Virus record (IMG/VR): IMGVR_UViG_3300010429_002123
Length of the DNA: 64,000 nucleotides
Strand: one strand, 5' to 3'
Source: a virus
Lineage: Duplodnaviria; Caudoviricetes
Part shown: positions 1,303 to 30,915 of the stretch, one piece after another
Layout: each line of letters starts with the position of its first letter
How positions within the stretch are numbered: the stretch's first letter is position 1
Made by a program: the position numbers and the translations under genes
The notes under the pieces: generated by a model
What the model was told of the DNA's origin: nothing
Seen by the model: only the letters and a program-made list of their open reading frames with translations
Databases searched by the model: none

Positions 1303-1815
1303 ATGTTAAATCAAAACGGAAAGCAGGCTGTGGAGGAAATAATAAGGATTTTAAGAGAGACTGGTGAGGGACTGGAGACCCCTCACCAACAGATACTCAT
1401 TAAGCAGGCCGAAAGACTCGAAACTATGCTCCCGGCCATGATAAGACCTATGCCCCCGCAAAAAGAGTTGCTTGCGAAGCGTTTTCCTGAGGCAGAACAC
1501 AAGACGAGAAAAGGTGCTCGTGGGAAACAGCTCACCTATGTAGAAACTGTAAATTACATAGACAGGTTAAATGAAATATTCGGCCTGCACTGGAGCTGGG
1601 AACTGACTGAGCAGGGTGCTGACGAAGTAGGTGTGTGGAGTCGTGGAAGGCTCACTATCGAGATAGACGGGAAAACGGTAGTTAAAGAGGCATACGGCGG
1701 GAACGACAAAAATGGAGAAATCGGGGACGCCCTGAAAGGTGCTTCTTCTGACGCCCTCAAAAAAGCCTGTTCACTGCTTGGTATGGGTCTTTACATGTAT
1801 AGAGATAAAAAGTAA
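1303..1815 (+). CDS. Rad52/Rad22-family (Sak-like) ssDNA annealing protein
   Basis: R-x-G-x-x-G-x-x-LTYV...IDRLNEIFG..WS and GDALKGASSDALKKACSLLGMGLYMY motifs. Confidence 0.85.
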   Translation: MLNQNGKQAVEEIIRILRETGEGLETPHQQILIKQAERLETMLPAMIRPMPPQKELLAKRFPEAEHKTRKGARGKQLTYVETVNYIDRLNEIFGLHWSWELTEQGADEVGVWSRGRLTIEIDGKTVVKEAYGGNDKNGEIGDALKGASSDALKKACSLLGMGLYMYRDKK

Positions 1816-8199: not shown

Positions 8200-8201
8200 A
8201 G

Positions 8202-8345
8202 ACATCGACGGAAAGTTAAAATACGTGACAAATCCAGTCACTGTCTCGGAGTTAACTTCTTTTTAGAAGTTTCTGAGACAAGGCTTAGAAAGTTTTCAGT
8301 GAGTCAGCCACTTAAAGAAAACGAGTAATTAAGCCAATCTAGCTG
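8202..8345 (+). ncRNA. conserved structured RNA scaffold fused to mini CRISPR array 1 (tracr/omegaRNA-like)
   Basis: Homologous to 9071-9204, 13558-13690 and 46505-46636(-); stems GTGAC/GTCAC, TGTCTCGGA/TCTGAGACA, AACTTC/GAAGTT, GGCTTA/TAAGCC covary between copies. Confidence 0.8.
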
Positions 8346-8510
8346 GTTTCCGAGGAAACATGGTTAGAGGGAAAGACGATAGGGGTGTTTTTGTCAACTT
8401 TTCCGAAGCTCAGTTTCTTAGGGAACATGTTTAGATGGAAAGTACGCCTCATACCTTTCACCTCGACTTCTCTTGAAAGTGTTTCTAAGGAAACATGGTT
8501 AGTTGAAAAG
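8346..8510 (+). CRISPR. mini CRISPR array 1 (3 repeats, spacers 37 and 38 bp)
   Basis: 30-bp repeats at 8346, 8413, 8481 (GTTTCCGAGGAAACATGGTTAGAGGGAAAG and variants). Confidence 0.9.
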
Positions 8511-8548: not shown

Positions 8549-9088
8549 ATGAAAAGAGAAGAGAACGGAAAAATAAAGAAAAAACACGTGCCTGCTAAAG
8601 TATTCCCTCCAGGAGAGTTCCTTAAGGAAGAACTGGAAGAGAGAAACTGGACAAAGGAAGAACTCTCTCAAAAAACAGGGATACCCCAGCAGGTAATAGA
8701 AGACATATTAAATCACAAAGGTGAAGTGACAGAGGAAATAGCTTCTCTTCTCGCTAGAGCTCTGGACGAACCGGAAGATTACTGGGTATGTTTGAGCAGA
8801 AACTACTTCGAGAGAAAAAAAGTCATTGCCCTCGAAGAGTCAAATCCTTGTAGATGCGGGGGAAGGGTCAGACATACAGGAAAGGTATATTATACCGCCC
8901 CGGCTTATTATGAAATGAAGTGTGATGAGTGCGGGAGAATAAAAGACATAAAAGAGGCTCCCAGTATTCCTGTAATAGAGTGTACAGAGGAAGAACTCTT
9001 CAAAAGACATCCTGAGGTGAGAGAACTTTATGAGAAGTTTCCTCATTTACGAAGAAGTGAGTCCGAAAAGACATCGACGGAAAGTTAA
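8549..9088 (+). CDS. HigA-like XRE HTH protein with C-terminal zinc ribbon
   Basis: FPPGEFLKEELEERNWTKEELSQKTGI...LARAL..PEDYW is the HigA pattern; CRCGG...CDECG; C-terminus TSTES* lies inside scaffold 2. Confidence 0.75.
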   Translation: MKREENGKIKKKHVPAKVFPPGEFLKEELEERNWTKEELSQKTGIPQQVIEDILNHKGEVTEEIASLLARALDEPEDYWVCLSRNYFERKKVIALEESNPCRCGGRVRHTGKVYYTAPAYYEMKCDECGRIKDIKEAPSIPVIECTEEELFKRHPEVRELYEKFPHLRRSESEKTSTES

Positions 9089-9204
9089 AATAAACGACAA
9101 ATCCAGTCGTAGACTCGAAGTTAACTTCTTTTTAGAGGTTTTTGAGTCGAGGGCTTAGAAATCTTTCAGTTTATAGAAAGCAAGTAATCAAGCCCGGCTA
9201 ACGG
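9071..9204 (+). ncRNA. conserved structured RNA scaffold fused to mini CRISPR array 2
   Basis: ACGAC-AAATCCA-GTCGT; GACTCGAA/TTTGAGTC; GGGCTT/AAGCCC; 3' CCGGCTAAC pairs with GTTAGTTGG of repeat 1. Confidence 0.8.
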
Positions 9205-9347
9205 GTTTCTGAAGAAACATAGTTAGTTGGAAAGTTAATTGGAATACCCATTTCAGACAGTTTCGAGAGCACGGTTTCTGAAGAAACATGATTAGTTGGA
9301 AAGAAAAAGAAGGTCAAGGTTCTGAAGAAACATGATTAGTTGGAAAA
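9205..9347 (+). CRISPR. mini CRISPR array 2 (3 repeats, spacers 39 and 14 bp)
   Basis: Repeats at 9205, 9274, 9318 (GTTTCTGAAGAAACATGATTAGTTGGAAAG). Confidence 0.88.
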
Positions 9348-9392: not shown

Positions 9393-12053
9393 ATGAGCAG
9401 AAAAAAAGTATCCCTGGAGGAAACTCTGGCCGCTATTAACAAGAAGTTTGGAAAAGGAACTATAATGCCTGTGAGTGAAGCAAAAAGCCTGAATTACATC
9501 AGAATTCCCACAGGTATTTTTAGTTTAGACGTTGCTGTAGGGGCTGGTTATGGTCTTCCGAGGGGAAGAGTTTCTCTTATAATAGGAGAAAAGTCCACAG
9601 GGAAAACGACTATATGCATGAAGACGATTGCTACCTGGCAGAAATACTGTAGATTCTGCAATACGGAGATAAAAGACCGTATAATAGAAATAGAACCGAA
9701 GGAAGAAATAAAACCCGAAGTAAAAGAAGAGGTAAAACCTGCAGTAAAGGGAGGAAAAAACACCCCTGAACCGGTAAAAGGGAAAAAACCTCCCGAGCCA
9801 CCAAAAGGAAAGAAACCTCCCGAACCTCCGAAAGAAGAGAAAAAGAAAGTTCAAAAAATTGTCACTAAGTGTGAATGTGGTAAAAACAAACGTATGGTCT
9901 GTGTGTATCTCGACGGAGAGGGAACTTATGACCCTCTATGGGCAAGTCATCATGGCGTAGACAATACCTCAGTAATAATGTTACAGCCTGAGTTTGCGGA
10001 ACAGTGTGCTGACGTTGTAGAAGAGCTGATACGCACTGGGGATGTTGACTTAATCATCGTTGACAGTATCGCAGCCCTCGTACCTGCCTCTGAAATAGAA
10101 GCTAGTGCAGAAGACCAGCAAATGGGAACCCACGCGAAAATGGTGAATAGAATGTGCCTGGAAGGAAACCAAAGGGTAATAAACGAGCTTACTGGAGAAC
10201 TTATCCGAGTTAAAGACTTAAAGGCTGGAGTTACGCTTACTTCCGTGGGAGAAGACAATAAAATAAGAAAGAACGTGGTTACAGAAGTGTTTAAAACAGG
10301 TAGAAAAGACTGCCTGAGGATAAACAACACACTGGTTCTCACAAAAGACCACTTAGTTTTTACAGACTCTGGCTGGGTAGAGGCTGGTAAACTCACCCGT
10401 AATCATCTTATCGCAAGACCAAAAAACCTTCCAGTTTTTACCACAGGAACCTCGGACTTTTTTAATGTGGAAGCCCGTCTCCTCGGTTATGCCCTCTCTG
10501 CCGAAGGTAACCCGGAAGCCTGGAAACGCGGGGGTAAGCACGAAGTAGAAGATAAAAGAAGAGCCATAGAGTTCTTTGGAGAAAGACTTCCTCTTCTGAC
10601 CTTTGAAGACTACAGTCAAATACTTTCTTTAGACCTGGGAAAAGCTCCGCATTTGAGAAGGTATAGAGACTTGTTTATAAAACATAACCTGAGTAAAGAG
10701 ACTCTCGGGATTATTCCTAAGGCCATCTTTGGGGGAGATATAACCCAGATAAAAAACTTTATAGAAGCCATGTGGACAGGAGGAGGTCTGGTCAACCCCA
10801 CAGAAAAAACGTTGACTTACTTAACCGTTTCTGAGACCCTGGCTTATCAGTTAAGACATCTCTTATTAAGGTTTGGAGTATGGGCGTCACTCGGTGTAAG
10901 CGAGTTCTCCTCAAGGTCTTACCCCTATGGGAAAAGATACCTTCTTACCGTAGCGGGTAAACAAAATGTGAAGAGATTTTATGAAGCCTTCTCTCTCTTA
11001 GACGAGAAGCAAGACAGGTTAAAAAGAATAGTAGAAAGATGGAAAAATCAATCTGAATTACCTATTCCCGCACAGGAGCAATGCACTAAAAAAGAGGTGG
11101 AAACCTTAATAGCTCTCTTAAAGAAGAAGAAAATATCTGGAACAGATGTTTGTTGCTTCATAGGTCTTTGCCGGAATGCTTACCCGGAGCACAAGGTCTA
11201 CACCTATGAGATATTAAAAAACCTCGTAGTTAAGTTTGGTCTTCAGGAGTTAATTCCTATGCTTGAATCTGACCTCTGGTACGAGCCTATTATAAATATA
11301 GAAGAATATGGGACTGAAGAGGTCTATGACATTTCCATGAAAAATGAAGAAAACTTCCTGTGCGAAGAGTATGTGGTGCATAACTGCAGGGCTCTCAGTT
11401 CCTCTATGAACAGTCTTGGGATAGAGTGCGAGACAAAACCCCATGTAATTCTGATTAACCAGAAGAGAGACAAGCTGGGCTTTTTTGGAGGTACTACCAT
11501 ACCAGGTGGAAAAGGCCAGTGGTACACAGCAGGCATAATAGTAGACATGAGAACCCCCCATAAAATCGGAGAAAACGGAAAGTTAGACCCAAAACAAGAC
11601 AGCAGTGACTATTACAAGACCGTAGAAACAGTAGGCTCCCTTCATAACTTTGAGGTTGTGAAAAACAAGACTTATATCCCTTTTAAACGTGGGTCTTTCC
11701 GCATCTACGGCCAGACTTGTAATAATGAAAGCCTTTCTGTCAGAAAGGGAGAAATAAACACGGAAGAACAAATATTACGTGTAGGTTTAAATACTGGAGC
11801 TATTTTGCTGAGAGGAACCTCCTATGTATTTCAAGACGTTATCTTTGGGATAGGAAAAGAGAAGGCTCTACAGGCGTTAAAAAGTAACCCGGAGTTACAG
11901 GAGAAAATAAAGGTTGTTATTCTGGAAAATATAAAAAGTGAGCTGGCTTCAAGCAGGGATTTATTTGAGGCTAACCAGGACATGCCCGACGGAATAGACT
12001 CCCTGTCTTTTGAACTTATGTCTGAAGAGCCCACAGAAGACAGTGGAGAGTGA
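9393..12053 (+). CDS. recA: RecA recombinase with intein and Zn/Pro-rich insertion
   Basis: INKKFGKGTI, IPTGIFSLDVAVG, GEKSTGKTT (Walker A), LIIVDSIAAL, INQKRDK, TIPGGKG. Confidence 0.93.
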   Translation: MSRKKVSLEETLAAINKKFGKGTIMPVSEAKSLNYIRIPTGIFSLDVAVGAGYGLPRGRVSLIIGEKSTGKTTICMKTIATWQKYCRFCNTEIKDRIIEIEPKEEIKPEVKEEVKPAVKGGKNTPEPVKGKKPPEPPKGKKPPEPPKEEKKKVQKIVTKCECGKNKRMVCVYLDGEGTYDPLWASHHGVDNTSVIMLQPEFAEQCADVVEELIRTGDVDLIIVDSIAALVPASEIEASAEDQQMGTHAKMVNRMCLEGNQRVINELTGELIRVKDLKAGVTLTSVGEDNKIRKNVVTEVFKTGRKDCLRINNTLVLTKDHLVFTDSGWVEAGKLTRNHLIARPKNLPVFTTGTSDFFNVEARLLGYALSAEGNPEAWKRGGKHEVEDKRRAIEFFGERLPLLTFEDYSQILSLDLGKAPHLRRYRDLFIKHNLSKETLGIIPKAIFGGDITQIKNFIEAMWTGGGLVNPTEKTLTYLTVSETLAYQLRHLLLRFGVWASLGVSEFSSRSYPYGKRYLLTVAGKQNVKRFYEAFSLLDEKQDRLKRIVERWKNQSELPIPAQEQCTKKEVETLIALLKKKKISGTDVCCFIGLCRNAYPEHKVYTYEILKNLVVKFGLQELIPMLESDLWYEPIINIEEYGTEEVYDISMKNEENFLCEEYVVHNCRALSSSMNSLGIECETKPHVILINQKRDKLGFFGGTTIPGGKGQWYTAGIIVDMRTPHKIGENGKLDPKQDSSDYYKTVETVGSLHNFEVVKNKTYIPFKRGSFRIYGQTCNNESLSVRKGEINTEEQILRVGLNTGAILLRGTSYVFQDVIFGIGKEKALQALKSNPELQEKIKVVILENIKSELASSRDLFEANQDMPDGIDSLSFELMSEEPTEDSGE
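10155..11384 (+). mobile_element. intein in RecA (410 aa, degenerate LAGLIDADG-type endonuclease)
   Basis: CLEGNQRV...LTKDHLV...YVVHN followed by Cys; exteins rejoin as VNRM/CRAL. Confidence 0.9.
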
Positions 12054-12066
12054 AGGGGGTAACTAA

Positions 12067-12543
12067 ATGGAAATAGTAAACTTTAAACGTGTGAGAATAA
12101 AAGAAGAGGGAAGAGACAAGCCTAAATACATAGGTTTTATTTGTGACTCTTACTTTATCTCATCACGAATAGTGGAAAAACATATGTACCGAGGTGGAGT
12201 AGGAACCATAGAAGAATGCAGAGAAGAAGGTTTGGCAAGCTGGGGATTAGACAGAAAAGTAGCCGAAGGTCTTGAGGTCAATGGTGTGAAAGAAATTCTT
12301 TTAGTCACAGACAAAGGCTACTTTAAAATAGGTGTAGACACTTTTCTTGACGAAAGTTTTTCAAAAACCTTTCATAACTTTCGAGAGCAGTTCTTCGCCC
12401 GAGAAAAGTTTTTCTCAAAAGCAGAGGGGGACGAGACTTCTGAACAGTTTGTAGCTCTGTTTAGACCCGAAAGAAAAGACTTGGAACTTCTCCTTGACCG
12501 TATAAAAGAGCTATCCTTCAGAGGACAGGAGGACTTGTCTTGA
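12067..12543 (+). CDS. hypothetical phage protein
   Basis: 158-aa ORF with SD, coupled to the next gene. Confidence 0.6.
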   Translation: MEIVNFKRVRIKEEGRDKPKYIGFICDSYFISSRIVEKHMYRGGVGTIEECREEGLASWGLDRKVAEGLEVNGVKEILLVTDKGYFKIGVDTFLDESFSKTFHNFREQFFAREKFFSKAEGDETSEQFVALFRPERKDLELLLDRIKELSFRGQEDLS

Positions 12544-13070
12544 AAACAGAAGGACAAAAATTGAGTAAAAAGCAGGAGAAGCAAACAGAAAAAGCTCTAA
12601 AAAAACACGGTTTTGTTAACCCTACCAGAACTCCCGGAAGTGGGAACAAATCTTTAAAGGGAGACGTCATTACAGACACACTGATGATAGAGTGTAAAAT
12701 CACGTCTAAAGAGCAGATAGGAATAAAGAGGGATTACATAACGAAACTCATAGAGGAGAGTATAGAAGCAGAAAAAGAGCCTGTTTTTGAGTTCGGCTTT
12801 TCCGGTATTAGTAATTTTGTGGACTTTACATGGATGGCTGTCCCAAAAAGCCGTATGGAAGAGCTTTTTAAAGAAGAAAAGACTACCCCCTTTGTAGTAA
12901 AGGGCAGAGGAACTAAACAGGTATCTATAAAGTATGAGGTGTTAAAAACCCTCCTTACGCAAGCACAGGAGCCATTGTTAGAGTTCACTTTTTCCGGTCT
13001 AGAACCCTGGTGGGCAGTTCCGAGAGAGCAACTATTAAAACTCTTATTCTCAGAAAGGGGGGAGCGGTAA
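12540..13070 (+). CDS. PD-(D/E)XK nuclease, Holliday junction resolvase-like
   Basis: E...TPGSG...KGDV...IECK motif. Confidence 0.7.
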   Translation: MKTEGQKLSKKQEKQTEKALKKHGFVNPTRTPGSGNKSLKGDVITDTLMIECKITSKEQIGIKRDYITKLIEESIEAEKEPVFEFGFSGISNFVDFTWMAVPKSRMEELFKEEKTTPFVVKGRGTKQVSIKYEVLKTLLTQAQEPLLEFTFSGLEPWWAVPREQLLKLLFSERGER

Positions 13071-13203: not shown

Positions 13204-13575
13204 ATGGGGCTTATCGTTAGAGAAGACCTGGTTCAGGACTTAAAAAACACAGAACAGTTATTGGACAAGACCCTTTCTTTAGCCCGAACGCTTATACATA
13301 AGTATGAACAACCGGGTATGGGGCTGGGGGAAGAACTCCCTTACGAGTTCTGGAACTTGCTCAAAGAAGTAGACTGGACAACGACGTGGTTTCTTGAACA
13401 CGCCTTTGACAAAGAGGAAACCCCTCTTTACACAGACGGCTTACTTCTTTTTGAATCCTGTTGTCTGGGACTGGAAAAACATATGAGAGATACGAAAAAA
13501 CTCTGTGGGATATTTAAGATGATGGCCACACTCTTTCGAGATAAGACCTTAACTATAACATCGACAGAAAGTTAA
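13204..13575 (+). CDS. hypothetical protein
   Basis: 123-aa ORF; C-terminal TSTES* supplied by scaffold 3. Confidence 0.55.
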   Translation: MGLIVREDLVQDLKNTEQLLDKTLSLARTLIHKYEQPGMGLGEELPYEFWNLLKEVDWTTTWFLEHAFDKEETPLYTDGLLLFESCCLGLEKHMRDTKKLCGIFKMMATLFRDKTLTITSTES

Positions 13576-13690
13576 AATAAGCGACAAATCCAGTCGCAGT
13601 CCTGAAGTTAAGTCTTTTTTAAGACTTTTTGGGACAGGGCTTAGAAAACTTTCAGTTTATAGAAAGTGAGTAATCAAGCCAAACTAACGG
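13558..13690 (+). ncRNA. conserved structured RNA scaffold fused to mini CRISPR array 3
   Basis: GCGAC-AAATCCA-GTCGC; GTCCTGAA/TTTGGGAC; AAGTCT/AGACTT (compensatory versus AACTTC/GAAGTT); ACTTTC/GAAAGT. Confidence 0.8.
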
Positions 13691-13955
13691 GTTTCTAAAG
13701 GAACATGGTTAGATGGAAAGTATGTGGAGACCGTGCACTACATCGACCGGCTTAACGTTTCTAAAGAAACATGGTTAGATGGAAAGCATGGGCAACTTAC
13801 ATTAGTAGCTTCATTGGCAACAAGGTTTCTAAAGAAACATGGTTAGATGGAAAGGTTACTATGTTTCTAAGGAAACATGGTTAGTTGGAAAGATTCGAAA
13901 TAGTCTATATCTACTTTTTTATTGTGTTTTTGAATAAACATGGTTAGTTGGAAAG
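13691..13955 (+). CRISPR. mini CRISPR array 3 (5 repeats, spacers 36, 38, 8, 33 bp)
   Basis: Repeats at 13691, 13757, 13825, 13863, 13926; terminal repeat degenerate. Confidence 0.93.
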
Positions 13956-13988: not shown

Positions 13989-14264
13989 ATGAAAAAGATT
14001 ATGTGTGAAACTTGTAAATTACAGATGGTACCAGACCGGTCTGTATGCTACACGAGTAACCCACCACAGTATGACTATAAGTGCTTTAAGTGTGGGCAGG
14101 TAAAGTTGGTGGCTGACGACCTCCCGTTAGAGGGGGAAGCCCTCTTTAGAAAGATAAACAACTTAGATGAAGGTATCACGCAGTTAAACGAGAGAAAAAG
14201 CGTGTGGCTGTCCGAAACAATGGACGGTATGGGAACTGAAAACTCAATCTTTTTGGAGGATTAA
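13989..14264 (+). CDS. small zinc-ribbon protein
   Basis: CETC...YTSNPPQYDYKCFKC, similar to the Zn ribbon of 8549..9088. Confidence 0.55.
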   Translation: MKKIMCETCKLQMVPDRSVCYTSNPPQYDYKCFKCGQVKLVADDLPLEGEALFRKINNLDEGITQLNERKSVWLSETMDGMGTENSIFLED

Positions 14265-14266
14265 CA

Positions 14267-14917
14267 ATGCAACTGATGAATAAACTATGCAAGACATGTG
14301 GGGAAAGAATCATAGGGGTTCGCCCGCAAAACAGTAACCGCATAGATAAGAAGACAGGGAAGTTTACTGACGGAGATTATCCCATGTGGGTATGTCCTAC
14401 CCTGATGGCTCAATGTGCCTGCACGGCAAAAGGAAAGAACCCCGTTGTAGCAGATTCTTATCAGGCACTCTGCAATATAAGAGTAGCTTACGAATTTTCT
14501 GCCCGTAACAAGTCTGTTTGTATGGGCTGTTATTACCCCGAAGATGACTGGGAAATAGTCGAATACGGGAACACTCTCGAAGAACTCGCGGACAAAGTAG
14601 CGAAAAAACTGGTAGAAACAGAGATAGAGATAGAAAATCCAGAACTGTCTAAAGTGAGACTTCTGACTTATGAAGACCAGGAGTTCAAACTGGGTTGGGA
14701 ATCTTTCGCGGAAGTAGAAACGGAACCCTTCATTCAGAGCGTAAAAGAATCAGAAACTTACAAAAACCTTATAGAAGCAAAGAGAGTAGAGGCAGAAAAA
14801 GAAAAAAAGGAAAAAGAAGAGCAGGCAAAAAAAGCTCTGGAAGAACGAGAAAGAGCCGAGTATGCGAGGTTAAAAGCAACATACGAGCTCATAGAAAGAG
14901 AAAATCAGGAAGAATAA
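14267..14917 (+). CDS. hypothetical Cys-rich protein
   Basis: 216-aa ORF with GGAGG SD. Confidence 0.55.
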   Translation: MQLMNKLCKTCGERIIGVRPQNSNRIDKKTGKFTDGDYPMWVCPTLMAQCACTAKGKNPVVADSYQALCNIRVAYEFSARNKSVCMGCYYPEDDWEIVEYGNTLEELADKVAKKLVETEIEIENPELSKVRLLTYEDQEFKLGWESFAEVETEPFIQSVKESETYKNLIEAKRVEAEKEKKEKEEQAKKALEERERAEYARLKATYELIERENQEE

Positions 14918-18998: not shown

Positions 18999-20663
18999 GT
19001 GCAGATATTACAGACAAGACAGGTCATAGCATTTGATACAGAATACGTAGACCGTGACTTTCCTAACGTTGATGTAGTAGGAATGTCTCTTGCATGGAAA
19101 GAGAACGGCCACGTAGACGGTTGTTACATACCTGTTGGGCACACAACGGGGGAGTCACAGTTACCTATAGAACTCGTTGCCGGGGCTATGAAACCCATAC
19201 TAGAAGACCCCGAAAAATTGATAGTCATGCACAACATGAAAGCTGACATAAAAGCGTCCTGGCTTATGGGTATTTACATAGCGGACGCTCCTTACTGGAA
19301 CGCCCTTCTGAACGAGGGGATTACTATTCCTTACAAAAAAGCCATAAGAGAAACCCACTTATGGGACACCATGCTTGCCTCCTGGATACTCGAACCGGAA
19401 AGAGAAATTTCTCATAAGTTAAAAAAGCTTGTAAAAGAACTTCTCGGGTATGAGATGCAGGAGCTGACAGACTTTGCTCCCAGAGAAAAAGCCTTGTTTA
19501 CAAAAACAGGAAAACCAGTTAAGTTAAAAGCTAACGAAGTTGCCCCTGATGAAACGAAGGTTCAGATATTAAAAAAGAGCAAAAAAGCTCTTCTGAGAGT
19601 AGATAAAGTCCCCATAGCCTCCCTCGGCAGGTACGCCTGGGACGACGCCGTGTGGACTTATAAACTGTATGAATACTTCAAAAACATCATAGAAACCTCA
19701 AATGCGGGGAAGGATAACAAGATTTTCTATGAAGTTCAACTCCCCTTTGCTGTAGTGCTTACGGAAATGGAAATCATAGGCTCTCCCATAGACGTCGCTT
19801 TACTGAAAGACATGGAAACAAGAGCAAAAGCAGAACTGGTAACGATAGAGAATAGGATTTACGAGTTGGCAGGAAAAACCTTTAACATAAAGAGCACAAA
19901 ACAGTTAAATGAGGTGCTTTTTGACACTCTCGGCTTAAAGCCTGAGGGTGACATGAACAAAAAAGGGGAATACTGCACAGACAAAGACGTAATGAGAAAA
20001 TATAAGAGAGAGTATGATGCCTTTAAGGCAGGTCTGCAGAAAAAGGGGGCTGAATGTGAAATAGCCTACTGGATGCTAAAACAGAGAGAGCTTACTAAAC
20101 TCATCGGGACATATCTGGAAGGTCTCGTCCTGTTTGCCAAAAACGGCAGAATTCATACCAGTTTCAACCAGCTTTCAAAAGATGAGAGAACCGGAACAAA
20201 AACCGGGAGGTTGAGTTGCGTGGCTAAAGATACGTTACTCTATGTAAAGACCGGAAGAGGCCGGGGAAAACTTCAGGAAGTTGAAATATCCAAACTTGAC
20301 TTGACCATACCCACGAGAATTATGACATGTGAGGGAAGATATAAACCCATAAACAAACTGATTTTCAAGGGTGAGGACGACCTCTACGAAATAACCACAA
20401 CTGCCGGGTGGAGACTGGTATGCACAAAAGAGCATCAAATCCTAACCCCTCACGGATGGTGGGTATCTGTTGGAGGCTTATTCGTAGGGCAAGAGGTCTA
20501 CGGAAACAAGCATAGGTGCACTCCTACAAACTGCACAGGTTACAAAAGAAGCTTCATAACCGCTATACGTCCCTTTGGAAGAGGGGAAGTATGGGACATA
20601 GAGGTAGCAGAAGACCAGTCTTACTACGCCGGAGGCTTTTTAAACCATAACAGTTCGAATCCT
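18999..20663 (+). CDS. polA: family A DNA polymerase, exon 1 (3'-5' exonuclease, thumb, intein 1)
   Basis: AFDTEY, MHNMKAD, DTMLASW, YAWDDA, FNIKSTKQL, TKTGRLS|intein|SSNP. Confidence 0.92.
20217..20651 (+). mobile_element. mini-intein 1 in DNA polymerase (145 aa)
   Basis: CVAKDT...CTKEHQI...FLNHN followed by Ser. Confidence 0.9.
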
Positions 20664-21382
20664 CAAATGGGGCTACTTTCCGGTGACGGAAAGTTAGAAT
20701 CTCTGTTAACTCGGTGGAATCTAAGTTTCTCTCCAGAGGAATATGACAATACCGAGCCGAGCTTCGCAGGAATGCGAAGAAGGTGTAACGACTACCTTGA
20801 TGTAATCTAGAACAGATAGAAAAGGCACGAACACAGAGTATCTTAGGTTGATTACCAAGATTGACAAAATATTTCTCCCGTCTATAATAAGAGCGAGGTG
20901 AAGAAAAATGAGAAATGATTGGACTAAGTCTGAAATAGCGTGGTTCAGAGAAAACTACCCAAAACACGGGTTGCATTACTGTTCTGATATTTTAAAAAGA
21001 ACCACAAGTGCCATTCTAATGAAGGCACATTTATTAGGTTTAAAAAGACGAGGAAAAGGAAGAAAAGACAGGGTGTATACATACGACGGTTACATTACTG
21101 TTTCCTCTGAGGGTGATAGATACCAAGTGCACAGAAGAGTAATGGAAAACCATATAGGAAGGAAACTGTCAACAAAAGAGTTAGTTCATCACAAAGACGG
21201 AAACAGAAAAAACAATTCCATTGAAAACCTAGAAATTTTGTCAAGAAGTGAACACATGAAAATTCACTACCCGCAGAGAATGAGAAATTCAAAAGGTCAG
21301 TTCGCCTAAGATAAAGATATAGTCTGAACTTGCGGGAAACCGCAAGAATTTCAGGATAAAGAGCCTGAAAGGTAACAAAATG
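20664..21382 (+). mobile_element. group I intron 1 in polA
   Basis: Exon ends in U (CCT), intron ends in G; removal restores SSNP|NLQNI; R-like GTAACGACTA and S-like AAGATATAGTC elements. Confidence 0.9.
20908..21309 (+). CDS. intron-encoded HNH homing endonuclease
   Basis: VHRRVME...VHHKDGNRKNNSIENL...EH..IH; internal promoter TTGACA..TATAAT at 20861-20888. Confidence 0.9.
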   Translation: MRNDWTKSEIAWFRENYPKHGLHYCSDILKRTTSAILMKAHLLGLKRRGKGRKDRVYTYDGYITVSSEGDRYQVHRRVMENHIGRKLSTKELVHHKDGNRKNNSIENLEILSRSEHMKIHYPQRMRNSKGQFA

Positions 21383-22443: not shown

Positions 22444-24930
22444 ATTTTTTACGGAATGGGACCAAGTTCTCTTGCAGAAACCATAAACAAAGAACTTGAC
22501 GACCCAAGAGACTTTTTAACGGAGGAAGAAGCTAAAAAAGCTATTTCAAACTTTATGGCTACTTACAAAGGCGTTTCACGTTATATTGAAAAATATAAAG
22601 ACATAGCCAGAGAAGTCGGGGTTGTAAAAACCCTGACAGGAAGAGCTCGCCCCTTACCCGCAGCGATGGTTAAGGCTCCCTGGAAAATAGCCGACCCGAA
22701 GGAGAGAAAAAAAGCTATTGAGGAAAAAGGACACGCCGAAAGGGCTGCGGTAAACTGCTTCGACGAAGAAACAGAGGTGCTTTCCCAAAGAGGCTGGCTT
22801 TCTTACAAGAACTTAACTGCCTCAGATGTGTTAGCCACAATAACGGGGGAAGGTGTTTTAGAATGGGACACTCTAATAGCTGTCAGTATGTTCCCGGGCT
22901 ATGATGAACCATGCATAGAGTTCTCTCACCCGGAAATAAGTGCCCTTACAACCAAAAATCACAGGTGGCTTGTATATGACAGAGTAGAAGCCAAAAACTT
23001 TTTTGTAACTACTGAAAATCTTTGTGCCCGGCACGAGATATTAAAAACTGCTACAAACCCACAGAAAGAAGCAGGTATTTCAGACATGGAACTTCTGAAA
23101 CACCCCCTTTCTCTGGAGTTTCTACTAAATCTGTCCCAAAGACAGTGCAGACTTCTTTTAGAAACCCTGATAGGAACAGGGTCTACTTCAATAAGCCCTG
23201 ACCTCTACCAGATACTGTGCTTTTTATCTGGGAAGAGCTATGAACTCTCCTTTAGAAACCTGTCTTCATACGCTGGATACACTCCCGGAAAGGACAGAGT
23301 TTATCTCCTCCCTGAGCACAAAAAAGAGAAAACAGTCTCTTTTGTCTGGTGCCCTACTGTAAAAAACGGGACGGTTGTGGTCAGAAGAAAGGGCACGGTT
23401 TATATCACCGGTCAAAGCCCCATTCAGGGGTGTCTCCCATCTTCCGCTCGAATTCTAACCCTTGAGGGATACAAGACTATAGACAACTTGATAAAGAGTT
23501 ATCCCGGAGAGAGACTGCAGGTATGGACGGGTTTTAACTGGAAACCAGCAAAAGTTCTCCCTATGGGTAAGGCTCCACTCATGAAAGTGACTTTTAAAAA
23601 CGGCTATAGTGTAAAGTGTGACAACCGTCACAACTTTAAAGTCCTTTCCGACAAACTGGAGTGGAAAAATATCTTGTCTCTTAAAGAGGGGGATATGGTC
23701 GCCACTCCTTACGGAGAGCAACACTTCGGGCAATACAACGCGAGAAACCTGGACATCTACAGGGGTAGAAATATTTGTGAACGGAGGTTTGACTATAATC
23801 TTCTCTTTTACCTCTCAGGTTTTCTGCTTTCGAGGGGAGAAATCATAGATGAGGGTGAGAAAACTCACATAAAGATTAGATTTACAACTTCTCTTCTTTC
23901 TAGTCGGGTCATAACCCTTGAAGAAAAAGTAAGAAACGTGCTTGTTAAATCTCTCTTAGAGAATGGAATCCTCTTTACCTGTGAGAGCAGGCGAAGAGAC
24001 GTGGGGACATCCCCCCATTCAGTTGTTGACCTTATAATAACTGACCAGCAGTTGCTTAAAGTTTTCTTAAGAGAGTTTGACGTCAGGAGTGGAAAAGTCC
24101 CTGAGCACATTTATAAGAGTGTCCACCCCTTACGCAGGCTGTTCTTAAAAGGTCTCGTGGAGGGAGGAGGACAACTCGACGGGAATAAAGTAATTCTTAC
24201 TTTTTCTGAACGTAATCTGGCTGAAGAGATAGCCTTTCTCTTAACCTCCGGGGGTTTTGTCTTCGAGGTAAAGAACTCTCCTAAGCTATCTCTATACCAG
24301 ATAACAATACAGCACAAACACGCCTTCCTGGCCTGGATTGGAATTTTCTCCGGCTCTTTCTACAACAGGACGAAGAAAAAATGTCCCGATGTATACATAA
24401 AAGAGTTTTTTGAAAAATTCACCCGAAACGCCAGAGGAAGGGTTACTCCCGGAATAACCCGCCAGTCCTACAGATACAAAGAACTGTTAGAGAAAAGACC
24501 AGAAAAATGCCATTTACATTTCCTGTACAAAATGGCAAGAGATTTCGGAATTGTCTTTGACGAAAAGTATGACTACCTTATAGTAGATAAAATTGAGTAT
24601 CTCGGTGAGGAACAGGAGATGTACACCCTTTCTGTTGACGACGACTTACATCAATTCGTAGCAGACGGGGTAATAGCCAAGAATAGTGCCGCCGACATAG
24701 TCTCAATAGCTATGAGAAACATTCGCCTGAAGCTCATGGAGACCGGAGACTGGTGGAAAAATTGCCAGCTCTTAATCCAGGTGCACGATGAGCTCAATTT
24801 TTTGATAAAGGAAACAGAGATAGAAAGGTTAGTTCCTCTCATAAAAAGTGAGATGGAAAGTGCGGTTAAGCTAAGAATACCCCTGGTGGTGGATTACCTT
24901 GTTGGGGTGAACTGGTTTGAGTGCAAGTAG
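22444..24930 (+). CDS. polA: family A DNA polymerase, exon 3 (inteins 2 and 3, motif C)
   Basis: IFYGMG, TLTGRAR, ERAAVN|intein|SPIQG|intein|SAADI, QVHDEL. Confidence 0.92.
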   Translation: MFYGMGPSSLAETINKELDDPRDFLTEEEAKKAISNFMATYKGVSRYIEKYKDIAREVGVVKTLTGRARPLPAAMVKAPWKIADPKERKKAIEEKGHAERAAVNCFDEETEVLSQRGWLSYKNLTASDVLATITGEGVLEWDTLIAVSMFPGYDEPCIEFSHPEISALTTKNHRWLVYDRVEAKNFFVTTENLCARHEILKTATNPQKEAGISDMELLKHPLSLEFLLNLSQRQCRLLLETLIGTGSTSISPDLYQILCFLSGKSYELSFRNLSSYAGYTPGKDRVYLLPEHKKEKTVSFVWCPTVKNGTVVVRRKGTVYITGQSPIQGCLPSSARILTLEGYKTIDNLIKSYPGERLQVWTGFNWKPAKVLPMGKAPLMKVTFKNGYSVKCDNRHNFKVLSDKLEWKNILSLKEGDMVATPYGEQHFGQYNARNLDIYRGRNICERRFDYNLLFYLSGFLLSRGEIIDEGEKTHIKIRFTTSLLSSRVITLEEKVRNVLVKSLLENGILFTCESRRRDVGTSPHSVVDLIITDQQLLKVFLREFDVRSGKVPEHIYKSVHPLRRLFLKGLVEGGGQLDGNKVILTFSERNLAEEIAFLLTSGGFVFEVKNSPKLSLYQITIQHKHAFLAWIGIFSGSFYNRTKKKCPDVYIKEFFEKFTRNARGRVTPGITRQSYRYKELLEKRPEKCHLHFLYKMARDFGIVFDEKYDYLIVDKIEYLGEEQEMYTLSVDDDLHQFVADGVIAKNSAADIVSIAMRNIRLKLMETGDWWKNCQLLIQVHDELNFLIKETEIERLVPLIKSEMESAVKLRIPLVVDYLVGVNWFECK
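22756..23415 (+). mobile_element. intein 2 in DNA polymerase (220 aa, ends Gly-Gln)
   Basis: CFDEETEVL...TTKNHRW...VWCPTV..GT...YITGQ followed by Ser. Confidence 0.85.
23431..24684 (+). mobile_element. intein 3 in DNA polymerase (418 aa, LAGLIDADG-like)
   Basis: CLPSSARIL...CDNRHNF...LKGLVEGGG...GVIAKN followed by Ser. Confidence 0.88.
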
Positions 24931-27387: not shown

Positions 27388-30300
27388 ATGCAAGTAAACG
27401 GATATTTCAGATTAAAGAAGGACCACCCCCTCGTCCCAGAATTCAAAAAAGACTGTGTCCTTCCAAACCCTGAGTATTTAAACAACTTAAAGATGGGAAT
27501 ATCTACAAAGGGTCTTTCCCCCACAGACTTACTCTACGAGCAGGAAGGAGACGAAATTCTCTTTCCCAGAGGAATGGCCAACCGGCTAAAAGGAACAGAA
27601 GACATCAGGGACTCCATGTCTTACGGTAAGGCCGTAAACTTCAAAGAAAGAATAACCCTTCGACCAGGTCAAAAATCTTTTTATGAAAAGTTTGTAAAGG
27701 GTGTTACTGACCTTTATGGTGCCAGTGCTCAGGCCGGGTGCGGACAAGGAAAATGTCAGACACTTTCTACTCCTGTCCTTACGCCAGAGGGGTTCAAAAC
27801 TCTTGGAAACATTCTTCCCGGTGACATGGTAATAGGCCGGGACGGAAAACCCACGAGGGTGTTGCAGACTTTCAGAAACGGAGAAAAAGACTGCTTCAGA
27901 GTAACCTTTAGTGACGGAAGTTTCGTAGACTGTGATGATGACCAGCTATTTCAGCTAAAGAATTCGGAAGCTCCTGTCACTCTTAAGAAAATACGGAACA
28001 GTCCCCCGGAAAAATTGGAAGTCCCTTTGTGTGAACCTGTAGACTTACCGGAAAAAGAGCAGGTGTTCTCTCCTTACTTACTTGGACTTTTGCTCTCAGG
28101 AGGGGCTTTTAAAGAGGGAAAACTCTATCTGTATGACAAGAATGAGCAAGCTAAAAACACGGCAAAAAGTGCCCTTTTAAAAACCCACAAATTAACAGGT
28201 CTTCCGCTGGGAAACAGCAGAACTTTGATATTTGAAAGATTAAAAAATGTTTCGGAGGAACTTGACAAACTCCTCCAAGATTCCCTGTCTTCGCCGGAGC
28301 AACTCAAGAGTGTAGGAGGCTCTTCTTCTAAAATACCTTACAATTACTTATTCGGGAGTAAAAGCCAGAGAAAAGCTCTTCTTCAGGGTGCTCTCGACAT
28401 GGGAGGAAGGGGAAAAGCAAATGTCTGGGACTTCAAAACACAGTCAAGAACCCTGGCAAGAGGGTTAACCTTTCTGGTAAGCTCTCTCGGTGGTACTTGC
28501 ACAAGTTTTTCCAGAGAAAAAACCTACCATCTCAGAATTGTCCTTCCTGAGGACTTCTCCTCCCCGGAAGGCTGCGGGGAAACTCCCCATAAAAAAATAA
28601 AAACAATAGAGCCCATAGGAAAGAAAGAAGTAGGATGTCTATTGGTAGACAATAAAGACCATCTTTATTTAGTAACTGAAACCTGTACAGTAATACACAA
28701 TACAGTGGTGTGTCTAAAAGTAATAGCGTCCCTGCAGAAAACAGCTCTGGTAATTGTGCATAAGACCTTTCTTGTAAACCAGTGGATAGAACGCATACAG
28801 GAATTCTATAATATAGAAGATAAAGACATAGGAATACTCTCAGGAGATGACATAGACTGGGCAGACAAAAAGATAAGTGTGGCCTTAGTACAAACACTCC
28901 TGGCTAAAGACCTCCCAAAAGAGTTCTATAACTACTATGGAACAATCTGTGTTGACGAGGAGCACAGGTTCGGGGCAGGAACCTTCAGAACAGTGATATG
29001 GAGATTTCCCGCAAGATACCGCCTGGGGGTCACGGCAACGCCCACCAGAAACGACTGTCAGGAAAAGGTATTCTTTACACACATAGGAAAAATAGTCTCT
29101 GTAATGTCTGACAGCAGAAAACAGCAGGTGGACGTCCACATGGTAAAAACAAATATTCCTCCCATTACTAACGAGAGACCCTTCTATGACTTCAGAAAAA
29201 AGATAAATCTCACTAAGGTTGTATCCTTCTTAATAGAATGCGAGTCTCGAAACCTTCAAATACTCAACTACCTCGTCAAGGCTGCGGAGAAAGGCCGAAA
29301 AATATTAGTATTAAGTGATAGAAGAGGACATCTGGAAACATTATCTTCTTTATTAAAAGCCTATTGTAAAGCAAATGAACACAAAAACATAAACATTTCT
29401 CAAGGGTATTACATGGGAGGAATGAAGCAGGAAGACTTAGACATTTCTACAACAAAAGACGTGATATTCGGCACTTTTGCAATGGCCTGTATAAGCGAAG
29501 AACAGGACTTTATTGACTACGTGACAGGGGAAACACAGAAATTTAAAAACCTTGTCGGAAAAAGCGTAAACTGCATTACCCATTCAGGAAAGATAACACA
29601 GTCGGGAAAAGTCATTTCTTCAGGTAAAAAAGAGTGCTTTAAACTGACACATTCCTTTGGGGACGTCTTAGCTACGGCAGACCACAAAGTCTTAACCGAA
29701 AAAGGCTGGGAAGAAGTCGCTAAGCTATCTTTACAGAGCCATCTGAGCCTCCCCAAAAAATTGGAAATAGAACAGGTCATAGACACTCCTATAAAAACCA
29801 GCGAACTCTGGCTATTAGGCTGTTTCATAGGTGACGGAAGCATGAGCCAGTATAAAAAAGGGGTCTTGTCGTTCATTTCCGCAGACGAAGACGTCCTAAG
29901 AAACGTGAAAAGCATTTTAGAAACACATAACATGACCCTTAAAAAAGTGCGAAAATACCGTTACAGAGTCTGTGGGGAGGGAAAAAACGGAAAGGGAGTA
30001 AAAACATGGTTAAGACATCAGATAGAAAACCTCGGACTCGGGGTCACGGCACGCAGTAAAGAAATCCCTCAGCCCTTTCTACTTCTCCCGGAACAGAAAA
30101 TAGGAAGTCTGCTCGCTGGACTGTTCGACACAGACGGGTGCGTAACTAAAAGAGGAGAGATACTTTTCTCTTCATCTTCTCAAAAATTAGTAACACAAAT
30201 TAAGTTTTTACTCTGGAGGCTGGGTATTTTTTCAACCCTCTACCCGTCGGCGGAGAATATGATGTTTGTCCTAAGCATCTCCCGGAATTTTAGCGAGCAG

Positions 30301-30915
30301 TTTTTAAAAACTGTCCCGTTAAAACTAAGAAGAAGAAAACAAAGAATAGAAGACTCTATGAGTAAAGGAAGAAGAGTCACAAAAAGCCCTACCAACTATA
30401 TCCCAACGTATTTTACAAAACTTCTTTTTTCTGAACTGAAAAGAAGAAAAATCCGAAAAACGGACATAGTGAGCCTGCTGAAAGAACAAAAAATGTCCTT
30501 TTCATGGGTTAACCACAACAAGGCAGCGGAAAAACAGAGCTTTAGCTTTCTTATTAACTTCTTTCAAATACCGGAGTTAGCAAAAGCCTTAGACTATATC
30601 TGGGCAAAAGTACAAAGCATTGAAAACATGGGGGAACAAAAAGTAGTAGATATGTCAGTGCCTGCTGATAACTCTTTTTTAGCGGGCGAAGCTCTCGTAC
30701 ATAACTGTGAGGGCTTAGATATACCCTCTATAGATACGGTAATCCTCGCCACACCTAAGGGAAGTGTCCAGCAGGCAGTCGGGAGAATAGTCCGGGAAAA
30801 AGCAGATAAAAAAGTATCTAAGGTAGTAGACATGATAGATGAGATAAGTATCTGTAAAGCCCTTTCTTTTAAGAGACTGAAGGAGTATAAAAAGCTAAAG
30901 TATGACATACACTAA
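27388..30915 (+). CDS. SF2 DNA helicase (XPB/UvsW-like) with two inteins
   Basis: LRPGQ, GCGQGK|intein|T, DEEH, GVTATPTRND, MA|intein|CEGLDIPSID, QQAVGRIVR. Confidence 0.92.
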   Translation: MQVNGYFRLKKDHPLVPEFKKDCVLPNPEYLNNLKMGISTKGLSPTDLLYEQEGDEILFPRGMANRLKGTEDIRDSMSYGKAVNFKERITLRPGQKSFYEKFVKGVTDLYGASAQAGCGQGKCQTLSTPVLTPEGFKTLGNILPGDMVIGRDGKPTRVLQTFRNGEKDCFRVTFSDGSFVDCDDDQLFQLKNSEAPVTLKKIRNSPPEKLEVPLCEPVDLPEKEQVFSPYLLGLLLSGGAFKEGKLYLYDKNEQAKNTAKSALLKTHKLTGLPLGNSRTLIFERLKNVSEELDKLLQDSLSSPEQLKSVGGSSSKIPYNYLFGSKSQRKALLQGALDMGGRGKANVWDFKTQSRTLARGLTFLVSSLGGTCTSFSREKTYHLRIVLPEDFSSPEGCGETPHKKIKTIEPIGKKEVGCLLVDNKDHLYLVTETCTVIHNTVVCLKVIASLQKTALVIVHKTFLVNQWIERIQEFYNIEDKDIGILSGDDIDWADKKISVALVQTLLAKDLPKEFYNYYGTICVDEEHRFGAGTFRTVIWRFPARYRLGVTATPTRNDCQEKVFFTHIGKIVSVMSDSRKQQVDVHMVKTNIPPITNERPFYDFRKKINLTKVVSFLIECESRNLQILNYLVKAAEKGRKILVLSDRRGHLETLSSLLKAYCKANEHKNINISQGYYMGGMKQEDLDISTTKDVIFGTFAMACISEEQDFIDYVTGETQKFKNLVGKSVNCITHSGKITQSGKVISSGKKECFKLTHSFGDVLATADHKVLTEKGWEEVAKLSLQSHLSLPKKLEIEQVIDTPIKTSELWLLGCFIGDGSMSQYKKGVLSFISADEDVLRNVKSILETHNMTLKKVRKYRYRVCGEGKNGKGVKTWLRHQIENLGLGVTARSKEIPQPFLLLPEQKIGSLLAGLFDTDGCVTKRGEILFSSSSQKLVTQIKFLLWRLGIFSTLYPSAENMMFVLSISRNFSEQFLKTVPLKLRRRKQRIEDSMSKGRRVTKSPTNYIPTYFTKLLFSELKRRKIRKTDIVSLLKEQKMSFSWVNHNKAAEKQSFSFLINFFQIPELAKALDYIWAKVQSIENMGEQKVVDMSVPADNSFLAGEALVHNCEGLDIPSIDTVILATPKGSVQQAVGRIVREKADKKVSKVVDMIDEISICKALSFKRLKEYKKLKYDIH
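27754..28701 (+). mobile_element. intein 1 in helicase Walker A (316 aa)
   Basis: CQTLSTPVLTPEG...LQGALDMGG...TVIHN followed by Thr. Confidence 0.88.
29488..30705 (+). mobile_element. intein 2 in helicase (406 aa, LAGLIDADG)
   Basis: CISEEQ...ATADHKV...LLGCFIGDG...LAGLFDTDG...LVHN followed by Cys. Confidence 0.92.

What the first reader, a model, noticed from the sequence alone, without database searches (positions are those of the whole stretch)
13721..13756. Scaffold-proximal spacer of array 3 is a synonymously diverged match to this phage's own Rad52/Sak gene
Seen: the spacer TAT GTG GAG ACC GTG CAC TAC ATC GAC CGG CTT AAC encodes YVETVHYIDRLN, while 1537-1572 reads TAT GTA GAA ACT GTA AAT TAC ATA GAC AGG TTA AAT = YVETVNYIDRLN. 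That is 11/12 amino acids but only 25/36 nt identical, with one non-synonymous codon. Inference: the spacer came from the orthologous gene of a related phage, so the arrays likely serve inter-phage competition, and divergence protects this genome from self-targeting.
Basis: partly seen in the sequence, partly recalled or inferred. Interest (0 to 1): 0.88.

Follow-up and report, generated by a model that had tools for sequence, protein, structure and literature searches.

The report
Phage CRISPR guide against rival recombinase
A roughly 234-kb phage-like element from anaerobic digesters carries at least ten tiny CRISPR arrays and its own TnpB/Cas12-like nuclease; the first guide of one array was copied from the Rad52-type recombinase gene of other phages, and the element's own copy of that gene is too different to be hit.

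Summary
Spacer 13721-13756 matches 1537-1572 at 25/36 nt and 11/12 aa, in frame with a Pfam-confirmed Rad52/Rad22 gene, far above chance.

The spacer lies inside a cloud of synonymous alleles of a Rad52-family annealing-protein gene found on other, partly temperate, phage contigs. The best alleles match at 30/36 nt, and 19/20 over the repeat-proximal 20 nt, with every difference synonymous. No exact protospacer was found. The carrier's own gene is a distant homologue (43% aa), not a recently diverged orthologue, so the resemblance reflects the family's most conserved block.

The context is the more interesting part.
- The window is the replication module of a ~234-kb phage-like element.
- The element holds at least 10 mini-arrays, 4 of them in the window.
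- Each array is fused downstream of a ~133-nt RNA whose structure is well supported by covariation.
- About 20 kb upstream of the window, a 765-aa TnpB/Cas12f-like RuvC nuclease sits between two such modules.

Most likely this is a phage-borne type V-like system that fights competing phages or prophages. The phenomenon is known (virus-borne mini-arrays); the architecture looks like a new variant. No function was tested.

The parts
13721..13756 (+). Spacer A3S1, the first (scaffold-proximal) spacer of array 3. It has the same sense as the Rad52 coding strand.
1537..1572 (+). Self-like site in the element's own Rad52-family gene: 25/36 nt, 11/12 aa, and 14/20 over the first 20 nt.
1303..1815 (+). 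Rad52/Rad22-family single-strand annealing protein gene (170 aa, P0001).
   Evidence: Pfam PF04098 at E 4.3e-13 and PHROG Erf-like SSAP.
13557..13690 (+). Structured ~133-nt upstream RNA element ('scaffold' or leader) of array 3.
   Evidence: CM score 163.6 bits; covariation; fold z-score -4.2.
13691..13955 (+). Array 3: five 30-nt repeats with spacers of 36, 38, 8 and 33 nt.
8201..8345 (+). Scaffold element of array 1.
8346..8510 (+). Array 1: three repeats with spacers of 37 and 38 nt.
9070..9204 (+). Scaffold element of array 2.
9205..9347 (+). Array 2: three repeats with spacers of 39 and 14 nt.
46505..46638 (-). Scaffold element of array 4.
46343..46504 (-). Array 4: three repeats with spacers of 37 and 35 nt. 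It lies upstream of, and is co-oriented with, the 650-aa HTH gene 46278-44326.
46648..46676 (-). Sigma-70-like promoter (TTGACA, 17 nt, TAACAT) placed so that transcription would start at the 5' end of scaffold 4.
   Evidence: Read directly. Analogous promoters lie before two modules in L035.

Best explanation
Position 13721-13756 is the first guide of one of at least ten mini-CRISPR modules carried by a ~234-kb phage-like element from anaerobic digesters. Each module consists of an occasional sigma-70-type promoter, a ~133-nt structured RNA, and then 30-nt repeats with one to three full-length (33-39 nt) spacers.

The spacer was taken from the most conserved block of a Rad52-family annealing-protein gene belonging to other, partly temperate, phages of similar habitats.

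The element encodes its own TnpB/Cas12f-like RuvC nuclease (P0199, L035:6579-8876, about 20 kb upstream of the window), flanked by two modules. I infer that this nuclease, loaded with scaffold-repeat-spacer RNAs, cuts the DNA of competing phages or resident prophages that carry the matching allele.

The carrier's own Rad52 homologue escapes because it is a distant family member: 43% aa, 6 mismatches in the first 20 nt, and a different 5' flank.

Shown: the arrays, the RNA structure, the nuclease family, and the Rad52 origin of the spacer. Inferred: that the nuclease uses these RNAs, that targeting happens, and that its role is inter-phage conflict.
For: Origin of the spacer:
- Peptide-level match far above chance.
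- Among 163 family members drawn from 1.84 billion representatives, only 3 have at least 11/12 aa.
- Alleles encoding the identical peptide reach 26-30/36 nt, with every difference synonymous. L034 matches 19/20 over the repeat-proximal 20 nt.
- These alleles lie on phage-like DNA: an integrase on L030, and a terminase (E 5.5e-112) and portal on contig C3.

Support from other spacers:
- A second spacer of the same repeat family (X3, recovered from reads at the element's depth) matches a Zn-ribbon gene 7 kb from the Rad52 gene on C3. Its BLOSUM score is 51, against a null maximum of 42.
- Spacers A1S1 and U1 look like homologous coding sites (p about 0.02).

Arrays and scaffold:
- Ten scaffold-plus-array modules were found.
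- The scaffold has 31 pairs, 99% of cells paired, and 14 pairs with compensatory changes, against 0-3 in slid controls. Its G-U pairs fix the strand.
- The arrays are identical in four independent assemblies.
- Contigs of an RNA library cover them unevenly, whereas the DNA run is flat.

Nuclease:
- PADLOC Cas12u4 at E 7e-9 and Cas12f at 2e-8; NCBIfam guided_TnpB at 2e-14.
- D435/E551/D646 are invariant.
- Every top fold match is a TnpB/Cas12-family RNA-guided nuclease (Cas12f, TnpB, TranC, Cas12m; E down to 3e-12).
- No TnpA was found nearby.
- The protein is 765 aa, against about 490 aa for its relatives.

Precedent: PMC6858448, PMC7162821, PMC10691335.
Against: - No exact protospacer was found in IMG/VR, JGI metagenome contigs, GTDB genomes or the protein-derived contigs. 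The best match is 83%.
- The arrays are invariant across samples, and many units are truncated (spacers of 0-25 nt), so there is no sign of ongoing acquisition.
- The link between P0199 and the arrays rests on adjacency only. P0199 could be an ordinary IS605-type passenger.
- The scaffold model does not hit the omega-RNA regions of two relatives.
- The scaffold has no extended anti-repeat.
- The 30-nt repeats ending in ATGGAAAG resemble, from memory, Cas6-processed class 1 repeats.
- Only about 119 of the ~234 kb were surveyed, and no structural genes were seen there, so 'phage' is itself an inference.
Confidence: 0.55

Rival explanations
1. The arrays are orphan mini-arrays that borrow the host's class 1 (Cas6 plus type I/III) machinery, as in Sulfolobales viruses. 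P0199 would then be an unrelated transposon gene.
For: - The repeats are 30 nt, start with GTTTC and end with ATGGAAAG, and the spacers are 33-39 nt. By my recollection this resembles type I-B/III repeats.
- Precedents exist in PMC6858448 and PMC7162821.
- No adaptation genes were seen in the 119 kb surveyed.
Against: - A paired-repeat pattern found no such array in 185,579 species genomes.
- A3S1 has the sense of the mRNA, so it would be useless to an RNA-sensing type III complex.
- A TnpB/Cas12-like nuclease sits between two of the modules.
- A conserved structured RNA fused to every array is not a feature of class 1 leaders.
Confidence: 0.2
2. The modules are anti-defence RNAs: decoy repeats (Racr) or crRNA-like regulators (Cracr/crlRNA). 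They would soak up or reprogram host Cas proteins, and the Rad52-like spacer would be a passenger.
For: - Many copies, some with their own promoters and truncated 'spacers'.
- Multiplexed viral crlRNA units are described in PMC10651486 and bioRxiv 10.1101/2024.10.29.618823.
Against: - Fourteen spacers have full canonical length (34-39 nt).
- Two match phage coding genes with a synonymous-substitution pattern.
- No host cas promoter or host repeat is known to compare with.
Confidence: 0.1
3. The arrays are decaying relics with no present function.
For: - The arrays are identical in all samples.
- Distal repeats are degenerate and spacers are truncated.
- No exact target was found.
Against: - Compensatory changes preserve the scaffold structure in ten diverged copies, which implies selection.
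- Promoters are conserved.
- Coverage in an RNA library is uneven.
Confidence: 0.1
4. The partial match is a designed self-regulator: the guide binds the element's own Rad52 gene without cutting it.
For: Partially matching guides regulate genes in other systems (bioRxiv 10.1101/2024.10.29.618823). The first 5 nt and 14 of the first 20 nt match.
Against: - The mismatches fall on synonymous positions, which is the signature of homologous descent.
- Foreign alleles match much better (up to 19/20).
- The 5' flank differs (TCACC against TTGCA).
Confidence: 0.03

Closest known systems
Virus-borne mini-CRISPR arrays in interviral conflict (Medvedeva et al. 2019, PMC6858448; review PMC11656645)
   Same: - Arrays of one to a few spacers with a leader, lying in intergenic regions of a viral genome.
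- Spacers derive from other viruses' genes.
- The carrier's own homologous locus is mismatched.
   Different: - In the known cases the repeats equal the host's, no effector is encoded, and the targets are near-identical relatives.
- Here no host repeat is known, a TnpB/Cas12-like gene is present, there are at least ten modules, the leader is a structured RNA, and the best target allele is 83% identical.
CRISPR loci of huge phages (Al-Shayeb et al. 2020, PMC7162821)
   Same: - A genome above 200 kb with compact arrays and no Cas1/Cas2.
- Spacers directed against genes of other phages.
- Type V-like effectors occur in such phages.
   Different: The arrays are dispersed across at least 70 kb as separate promoter-scaffold-array units, rather than forming one locus next to the effector.
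TnpB-derived type V systems: Cas12f, V-U variants and TranC intermediates (PMC10691335; Jin et al. 2025 as cited in PMC13565253)
   Same: - A RuvC D-E-D nuclease with a TnpB/Cas12f fold.
- Larger than its TnpB relatives.
- Associated with arrays but with no adaptation genes.
- A ~130-nt structured RNA lies 5' of the repeat and guide, comparable in size to an omega-RNA or tracrRNA.
   Different: - The scaffold is fused in cis to each array and amplified at least tenfold.
- No long anti-repeat is present.
- No Zn-finger cysteines occur in this clade.
- RNA use is untested.
RNA anti-CRISPRs and viral crlRNAs (PMC10651486; bioRxiv 10.1101/2024.10.29.618823)
   Same: Phage-encoded repeat-bearing small transcription units, present in multiple copies.
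   Different: Racrs are solitary repeats without real spacers. These arrays carry full-length spacers derived from phage genes.

Membership tests
Rad52/Rad22 annealing proteins (ORF 1303-1815) | A match to Pfam PF04098 above the gathering score. | tested here: met
   49.9 bits against a cut-off of 20.3, E 4.3e-13. 2584 relatives at E <= 0.001.
CRISPR array | Regularly spaced near-identical repeats separated by unique spacers of similar length. | tested here: met
   The 30-nt repeat gives 9 matches at <=3 mismatches (0 expected by chance) and 14 copies at <=5 mismatches. Spacers are 33-39 nt, with degenerate distal units.
CRISPR array | The repeat belongs to a curated Rfam CRISPR-DR family. | tested here: not met
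   No Rfam match at gathering score or at E <= 5.
Virus-borne mini-arrays (Medvedeva type) | Repeats identical or near-identical to those of the host's arrays, so that the host's Cas proteins can be used. | tested here: inconclusive
   The host is unknown. The paired-repeat pattern found nothing in the GTDB species genomes or in IMG/VR.
Virus-borne mini-arrays (Medvedeva type) | The virus itself encodes no cas effector. | tested here: not met
   P0199, a TnpB/Cas12f-like protein, lies between two modules.
Virus-borne mini-arrays (Medvedeva type) | Spacers match other viruses at or near 100% identity. | tested here: not met
   Best match 30/36 overall and 19/20 in the first 20 nt. Three other spacers had no exact 30-nt core match in IMG/VR.
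Virus-borne mini-arrays (Medvedeva type) | The carrier's own homologous locus is mutated, so it is not targeted. | tested here: met
   11 mismatches in 36.
Type V effector / TnpB family (P0199) | A RuvC-like domain with the catalytic D, E, D triad. | tested here: met
   D435, E551 and D646 are invariant in 33 homologues.
Type V effector / TnpB family (P0199) | Sequence or fold membership in the family. | tested here: met
   PADLOC Cas12u4 and Cas12f at E about 1e-8. NCBIfam guided_TnpB at E 2e-14, but below its curated cut-off. Foldseek top hits are all TnpB/Cas12-family nucleases (Cas12f, TnpB, TranC, Cas12m) at probability 1.00, on a model with pLDDT 70.
Type V effector / TnpB family (P0199) | Uses the adjacent repeat-spacer RNA as a guide, with a defined PAM or TAM. 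| not testable with these tools
   Only adjacency is shown. The 5' flank of the nearest alleles is CTTGCA, against CTCACC in the carrier's own gene; this is a hint, not a test.
tracrRNA | An extended anti-repeat complementary to the repeat. | tested here: not met
   Scaffold-repeat duplex energies of -9 to -14.5 kcal/mol are no better than those of shuffled repeats (mean -12). Only a 5-bp CUAAC/GUUAG pairing with the first repeat is possible, and it shows no covariation.
RNA anti-CRISPR (Racr) | A solitary repeat unit without a bona fide spacer. | tested here: not met
   Fourteen recovered spacers of 34-39 nt, plus one AT-rich 33-nt unit.

The most novel reading that the evidence does not exclude
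A huge phage has domesticated a TnpB into a Cas12-like weapon whose omega-RNA-like scaffold stays fused in cis to short multi-spacer arrays. It has amplified this unit into at least ten promoter-driven modules scattered through its early genes. This would be a natural multiplexed single-guide arrangement, and a living intermediate between one-guide TnpB and tracrRNA-plus-array type V systems, used against competing phages and prophages.
Probability: 0.35. Interest if true: 0.8.

Novelty: new variant of a known kind. Interest (0 to 1): 0.6.

Why it matters
The spacer-versus-own-gene pattern is a further example, in a bacterial huge phage, of virus-borne arrays aimed at other viruses.

What would matter more is the architecture. 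A covariation-supported ~133-nt RNA is fused to every mini-array, there are at least ten dispersed copies, and a TnpB/Cas12f-like nuclease lies among them. If the nuclease uses these RNAs, the system would be a compact, naturally multiplexed RNA-guided nuclease. It would also be a testable snapshot of how arrays arise from omega-RNA, which PMC10691335 and the TranC work propose.

It would further show a phage targeting the recombination gene of rivals while keeping a diverged homologue for itself.

Tried and rejected
Searches for the protospacer:
- The exact spacer, and a codon-degenerate version, in IMG/VR gave 0 hits.
- Rad52 relatives in IMG/VR gave none.
- The window is not in INPHARED. 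Only distant Rad52 relatives are there.
- The degenerate pattern in JGI metagenome contigs gave two contigs with the same peptide at 26/36 nt. In the GTDB genomes it gave one contig at 28/36 nt.
- Exact 30-nt cores of spacers A4S1, A2S1 and A3S2 in IMG/VR gave 0 hits.

Searches for the host and for related arrays:
- The paired-repeat pattern in the GTDB genomes gave 0 hits.
- A looser hairpin-repeat pattern and a scaffold pattern in IMG/VR gave 0 hits.
- The MAG that holds contig C3 has neither the repeats nor the scaffold.
- No whole genome is held for the window, and the metagenome records could not be searched whole.

Identity of the scaffold and repeat:
- Rfam gave nothing for either.
- The scaffold covariance model did not hit the 3' regions of TnpB relatives in Geobacillus virus E3 or on a Cetobacterium plasmid.
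- No long anti-repeat is present.
- The repeat sequence does not appear in the literature library.

Other negatives:
- No cas genes appear in the precomputed Pfam annotation from window -28 kb to +90 kb, apart from P0199, which Pfam itself misses.
- P0199 has no sequence hit to PDB chains.
- Depth figures of RNA-library contigs cannot prove transcription or processing.
- A3S4's peptide hit on C3 was rejected as a non-coding-frame artefact.

Full report
OBSERVATION. Spacer 13721-13756 and site 1537-1572 share 25/36 nt and 11/12 aa. The site is in frame with ORF 1303-1815, which matches Pfam Rad52_Rad22 at E 4.3e-13 and a PHROG Erf-like annealing protein. The nucleotide identity alone is not striking, since the other spacers reach 22-24 by chance. 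The peptide match is. Its six-frame BLOSUM62 score is 58, against a mean of 30 and a maximum of 39 for 200 shuffles. None of the other seven full-length spacers in the window has a comparable self-like hit.

THE ARRAYS. The window holds four mini-arrays of a 30-nt repeat (consensus GTTTCTAAAGAAACATGGTTAGATGGAAAG):
- Array 1, 8346-8510.
- Array 2, 9205-9347.
- Array 3, 13691-13955.
- Array 4, 46504-46343 on the minus strand.

Their spacers are 33-39 nt, and the units farthest from the upstream element are degenerate or truncated. Each array sits just upstream of a gene and is co-oriented with it: an HTH gene at 8549, intein-bearing RecA at 9393, a Zn-ribbon ORF at 13989, and a 650-aa HTH gene starting at 46278 on the minus strand.

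THE UPSTREAM ELEMENT. A conserved ~133-nt element precedes every array. Across seven copies it forms five helices with 31 pairs. 99.1% of cells are paired, and 14 pairs show compensatory double changes, against 0-3 in slid controls. Invariant G-U pairs place the structure on the array-sense strand. The fold z-score is -4.2. Rfam has no match for the element or the repeat. Sigma-70-like promoters lie immediately 5' of the element at array 4 (46676-46648) and at two modules outside the window. The transcript therefore starts with the element and runs into the array. The element begins with a repeat-like stretch (ACATCGACGGAAAG; compare the repeat's 3' end). It has no extended anti-repeat. A 5-bp pairing with the first repeat is possible but invariant, so it cannot be tested by covariation.

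WHAT THE WINDOW IS. The window is not in INPHARED or IMG/VR. Identical proteins occur on contigs of up to 233,966 bp, on two ~67-kb ENA contigs, and on Logan and JGI contigs. Sequencing runs that hold it are labelled anaerobic digester and activated sludge. The window carries:
- RecA with an intein.
- Family A DNA polymerase in two pieces with an intein.
- An SNF2-like helicase with an intein.
- Hjc-type resolvases, ParB-like proteins, ThyX, kinases and a group I intron.

This is a replication and nucleotide-metabolism module typical of huge phages. No structural gene was seen in the ~119 kb surveyed, so 'phage' remains an inference. The arrays are letter-for-letter identical in four independent assemblies.

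MORE MODULES AND A NUCLEASE. Walking upstream found six more element-plus-array modules, making ten in total. Laid contigs of a DNA run and an RNA run revealed further repeat-flanked spacers (X1-X4) at the element's depth. One of them, X4, was then located in the upstream flank, which supports assigning the others to the same genome.

Between two of the upstream modules lies a 765-aa ORF (P0199, L035:6579-8876, about 19.4-21.7 kb upstream of window position 1).
- Pfam and PDB sequence searches miss it.
- PADLOC matches Cas12u4 (E 7e-9) and Cas12f (E 2e-8).
- NCBIfam matches guided_TnpB (E 2e-14, below its curated cut-off).
- Its many ~490-aa relatives are annotated as IS605 OrfB transposases in Clostridium, Geobacillus phage and Cetobacterium.
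- D435, E551 and D646 are invariant.
- The AlphaFold model (pLDDT 70) hits only TnpB/Cas12-family structures at the top of the PDB search, led by Cas12f, TnpB, TranC and Cas12m, with E down to 3e-12.
- No TnpA-like neighbour was found.

The element therefore carries its own candidate type V-like effector. That this effector uses the modules is inferred from adjacency alone.

WHERE THE SPACER CAME FROM. No exact protospacer exists in IMG/VR, JGI metagenome contigs or the GTDB species genomes. The peptide YVETVHYIDRLN is restricted to a narrow subfamily. Of 163 relatives, including the 150 best from 1.84 billion representatives, only three have at least 11/12 aa, and one of those is the element's own protein. 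A second protein search added three more exact-peptide members.

DNA of these alleles matches the spacer as follows, with all differences synonymous wherever the peptide is identical:

| Locus | Identity over 36 nt | Identity over the repeat-proximal 20 nt |
|---|---|---|
| L002, L013 | 26/36 | 16/20, 14/20 |
| L014 | 27/36 | 15/20 |
| C3 | 28/36 | 17/20 |
| L030-L032 | 30/36 | 18/20 |
| L033 | 30/36 | 17/20 |
| L034 | 30/36 | 19/20 |
| The element's own gene | 25/36 | 14/20 |

The first 20 nt are the part a TnpB/Cas12f-type enzyme would use. The nearest alleles share the 5' flank CTTGCA, whereas the element's own gene has CTCACC.

The carriers of these alleles are phage-like. L030 has a phage integrase. 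The 91-kb contig C3, binned in a MAG, has a terminase and a portal. C3 shares only three genes with the window. The nearest-allele protein is 43% identical to the element's own. The spacer's GC3 (10/12) is unlike the element's (0.44; P = 0.006). The source is therefore another phage group that shares this annealing-protein family, and not a close relative of the carrier. The self-resemblance reflects the family's most conserved block.

SUPPORT FROM OTHER SPACERS. Spacer X3 matches, in antisense, a Zn-ribbon ORF 7 kb from the Rad52 gene on C3. The peptides are RLFNGEWTDYY and RYLNGEWEDYY, with a score of 51 against a null maximum of 42. Spacers A1S1 and U1, from different arrays, encode related peptides with conserved second codon positions (p about 0.02). 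This looks like two alleles of one target site.

MECHANISM AND RIVALS. The best-supported reading is phage-encoded, RNA-guided targeting of competing phages or resident prophages. The concept is established for virus-borne mini-arrays (PMC6858448; review PMC11656645) and for huge phages (PMC7162821). TnpB-to-Cas12 recruitments with arrays but without adaptation genes are common (PMC10691335), and TranC intermediates have been described (Jin et al. 2025, cited in PMC13565253).

The rivals are:
- Use of a host class 1 system.
- Decoy or regulatory RNAs (PMC10651486; bioRxiv 10.1101/2024.10.29.618823).
- Relic arrays with no present function.
- Self-regulation of the element's own Rad52 gene.

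Because A3S1 has mRNA sense, it could not serve a transcript-sensing type III complex, which favours a DNA-targeting effector. RNA-library contigs cover the region unevenly, with depths from about 4 to 136 per contig, while the DNA run is flat at about 58. This is compatible with transcription but does not prove it.

VERDICT. The spacer phenomenon is a new instance of a known kind. The scaffold-fused, multi-copy modules beside a TnpB/Cas12f-like gene look like a new variant of type V-like phage systems and deserve follow-up.

Noticed in passing
L035:6579-8876 (about 19.4-21.7 kb upstream of window position 1): A 765-aa TnpB/Cas12f-like RuvC nuclease (P0199) with an intact D-E-D triad and no Zn-finger cysteines. 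It is flanked by two scaffold-plus-array modules and has no TnpA nearby.
   Followed up: yes
window 8201-8345, 9070-9204, 13557-13690, 46505-46638(-); L035 5206, 6267, 8936, 14078, 14934, 18758: A ~133-nt RNA element fused upstream of every array. It has strong covariation support, no Rfam family, and a repeat-like 5' end (ACATCGACGGAAAG).
   Followed up: yes
window 8376-8412 and L017:4526-4561: Spacers A1S1 and U1, from different arrays, encode related peptides (DRGVFVNFSEA and NYGVFVHFADT) with conserved second codon positions. They look like two alleles of one unknown target gene.
   Followed up: partly
window 36266-36541: A group I intron (Rfam RF00028, 90 bits). It overlaps the 3' end of mechanical ORF 35528-36469 and runs past it.
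   Followed up: no
window 9393-12053, 18999-20810 + 22456-24930, 27388-30915: Inteins (some with LAGLIDADG domains) in RecA, in family A DNA polymerase (which appears in two ORFs 1.6 kb apart) and in an SNF2-like helicase. Further inteins occur in RNR and a DNA methylase in the downstream flank.
   Followed up: no
window 54689-55606: A 305-aa protein that matches PHROG 1706 'CRISPR/Cas system associated' (E 9e-24) and an exonuclease PHROG, but no Pfam family. It may be a Cas4-like PD-(D/E)XK nuclease.
   Followed up: partly
window 8549-9088, 13989-14264, 14267-14917: Small ORFs directly downstream of the arrays carry paired Cys-x2-Cys (Zn-ribbon-like) motifs. Spacer X3's homologue on contig C3 is also a Zn-ribbon ORF.
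   Followed up: no
window about 38826-38857: By coordinate arithmetic, the two ENA contigs (NODE_210 and NODE_212) that cover the element meet here with about 30 nt of overlap. This is an assembly break of unknown cause.
   Followed up: no
window 12540-13070 and about 59921-60409: Two separate Hjc-like (archaeal-type) Holliday junction resolvase genes in one element, alongside RecA and Rad52.
   Followed up: no
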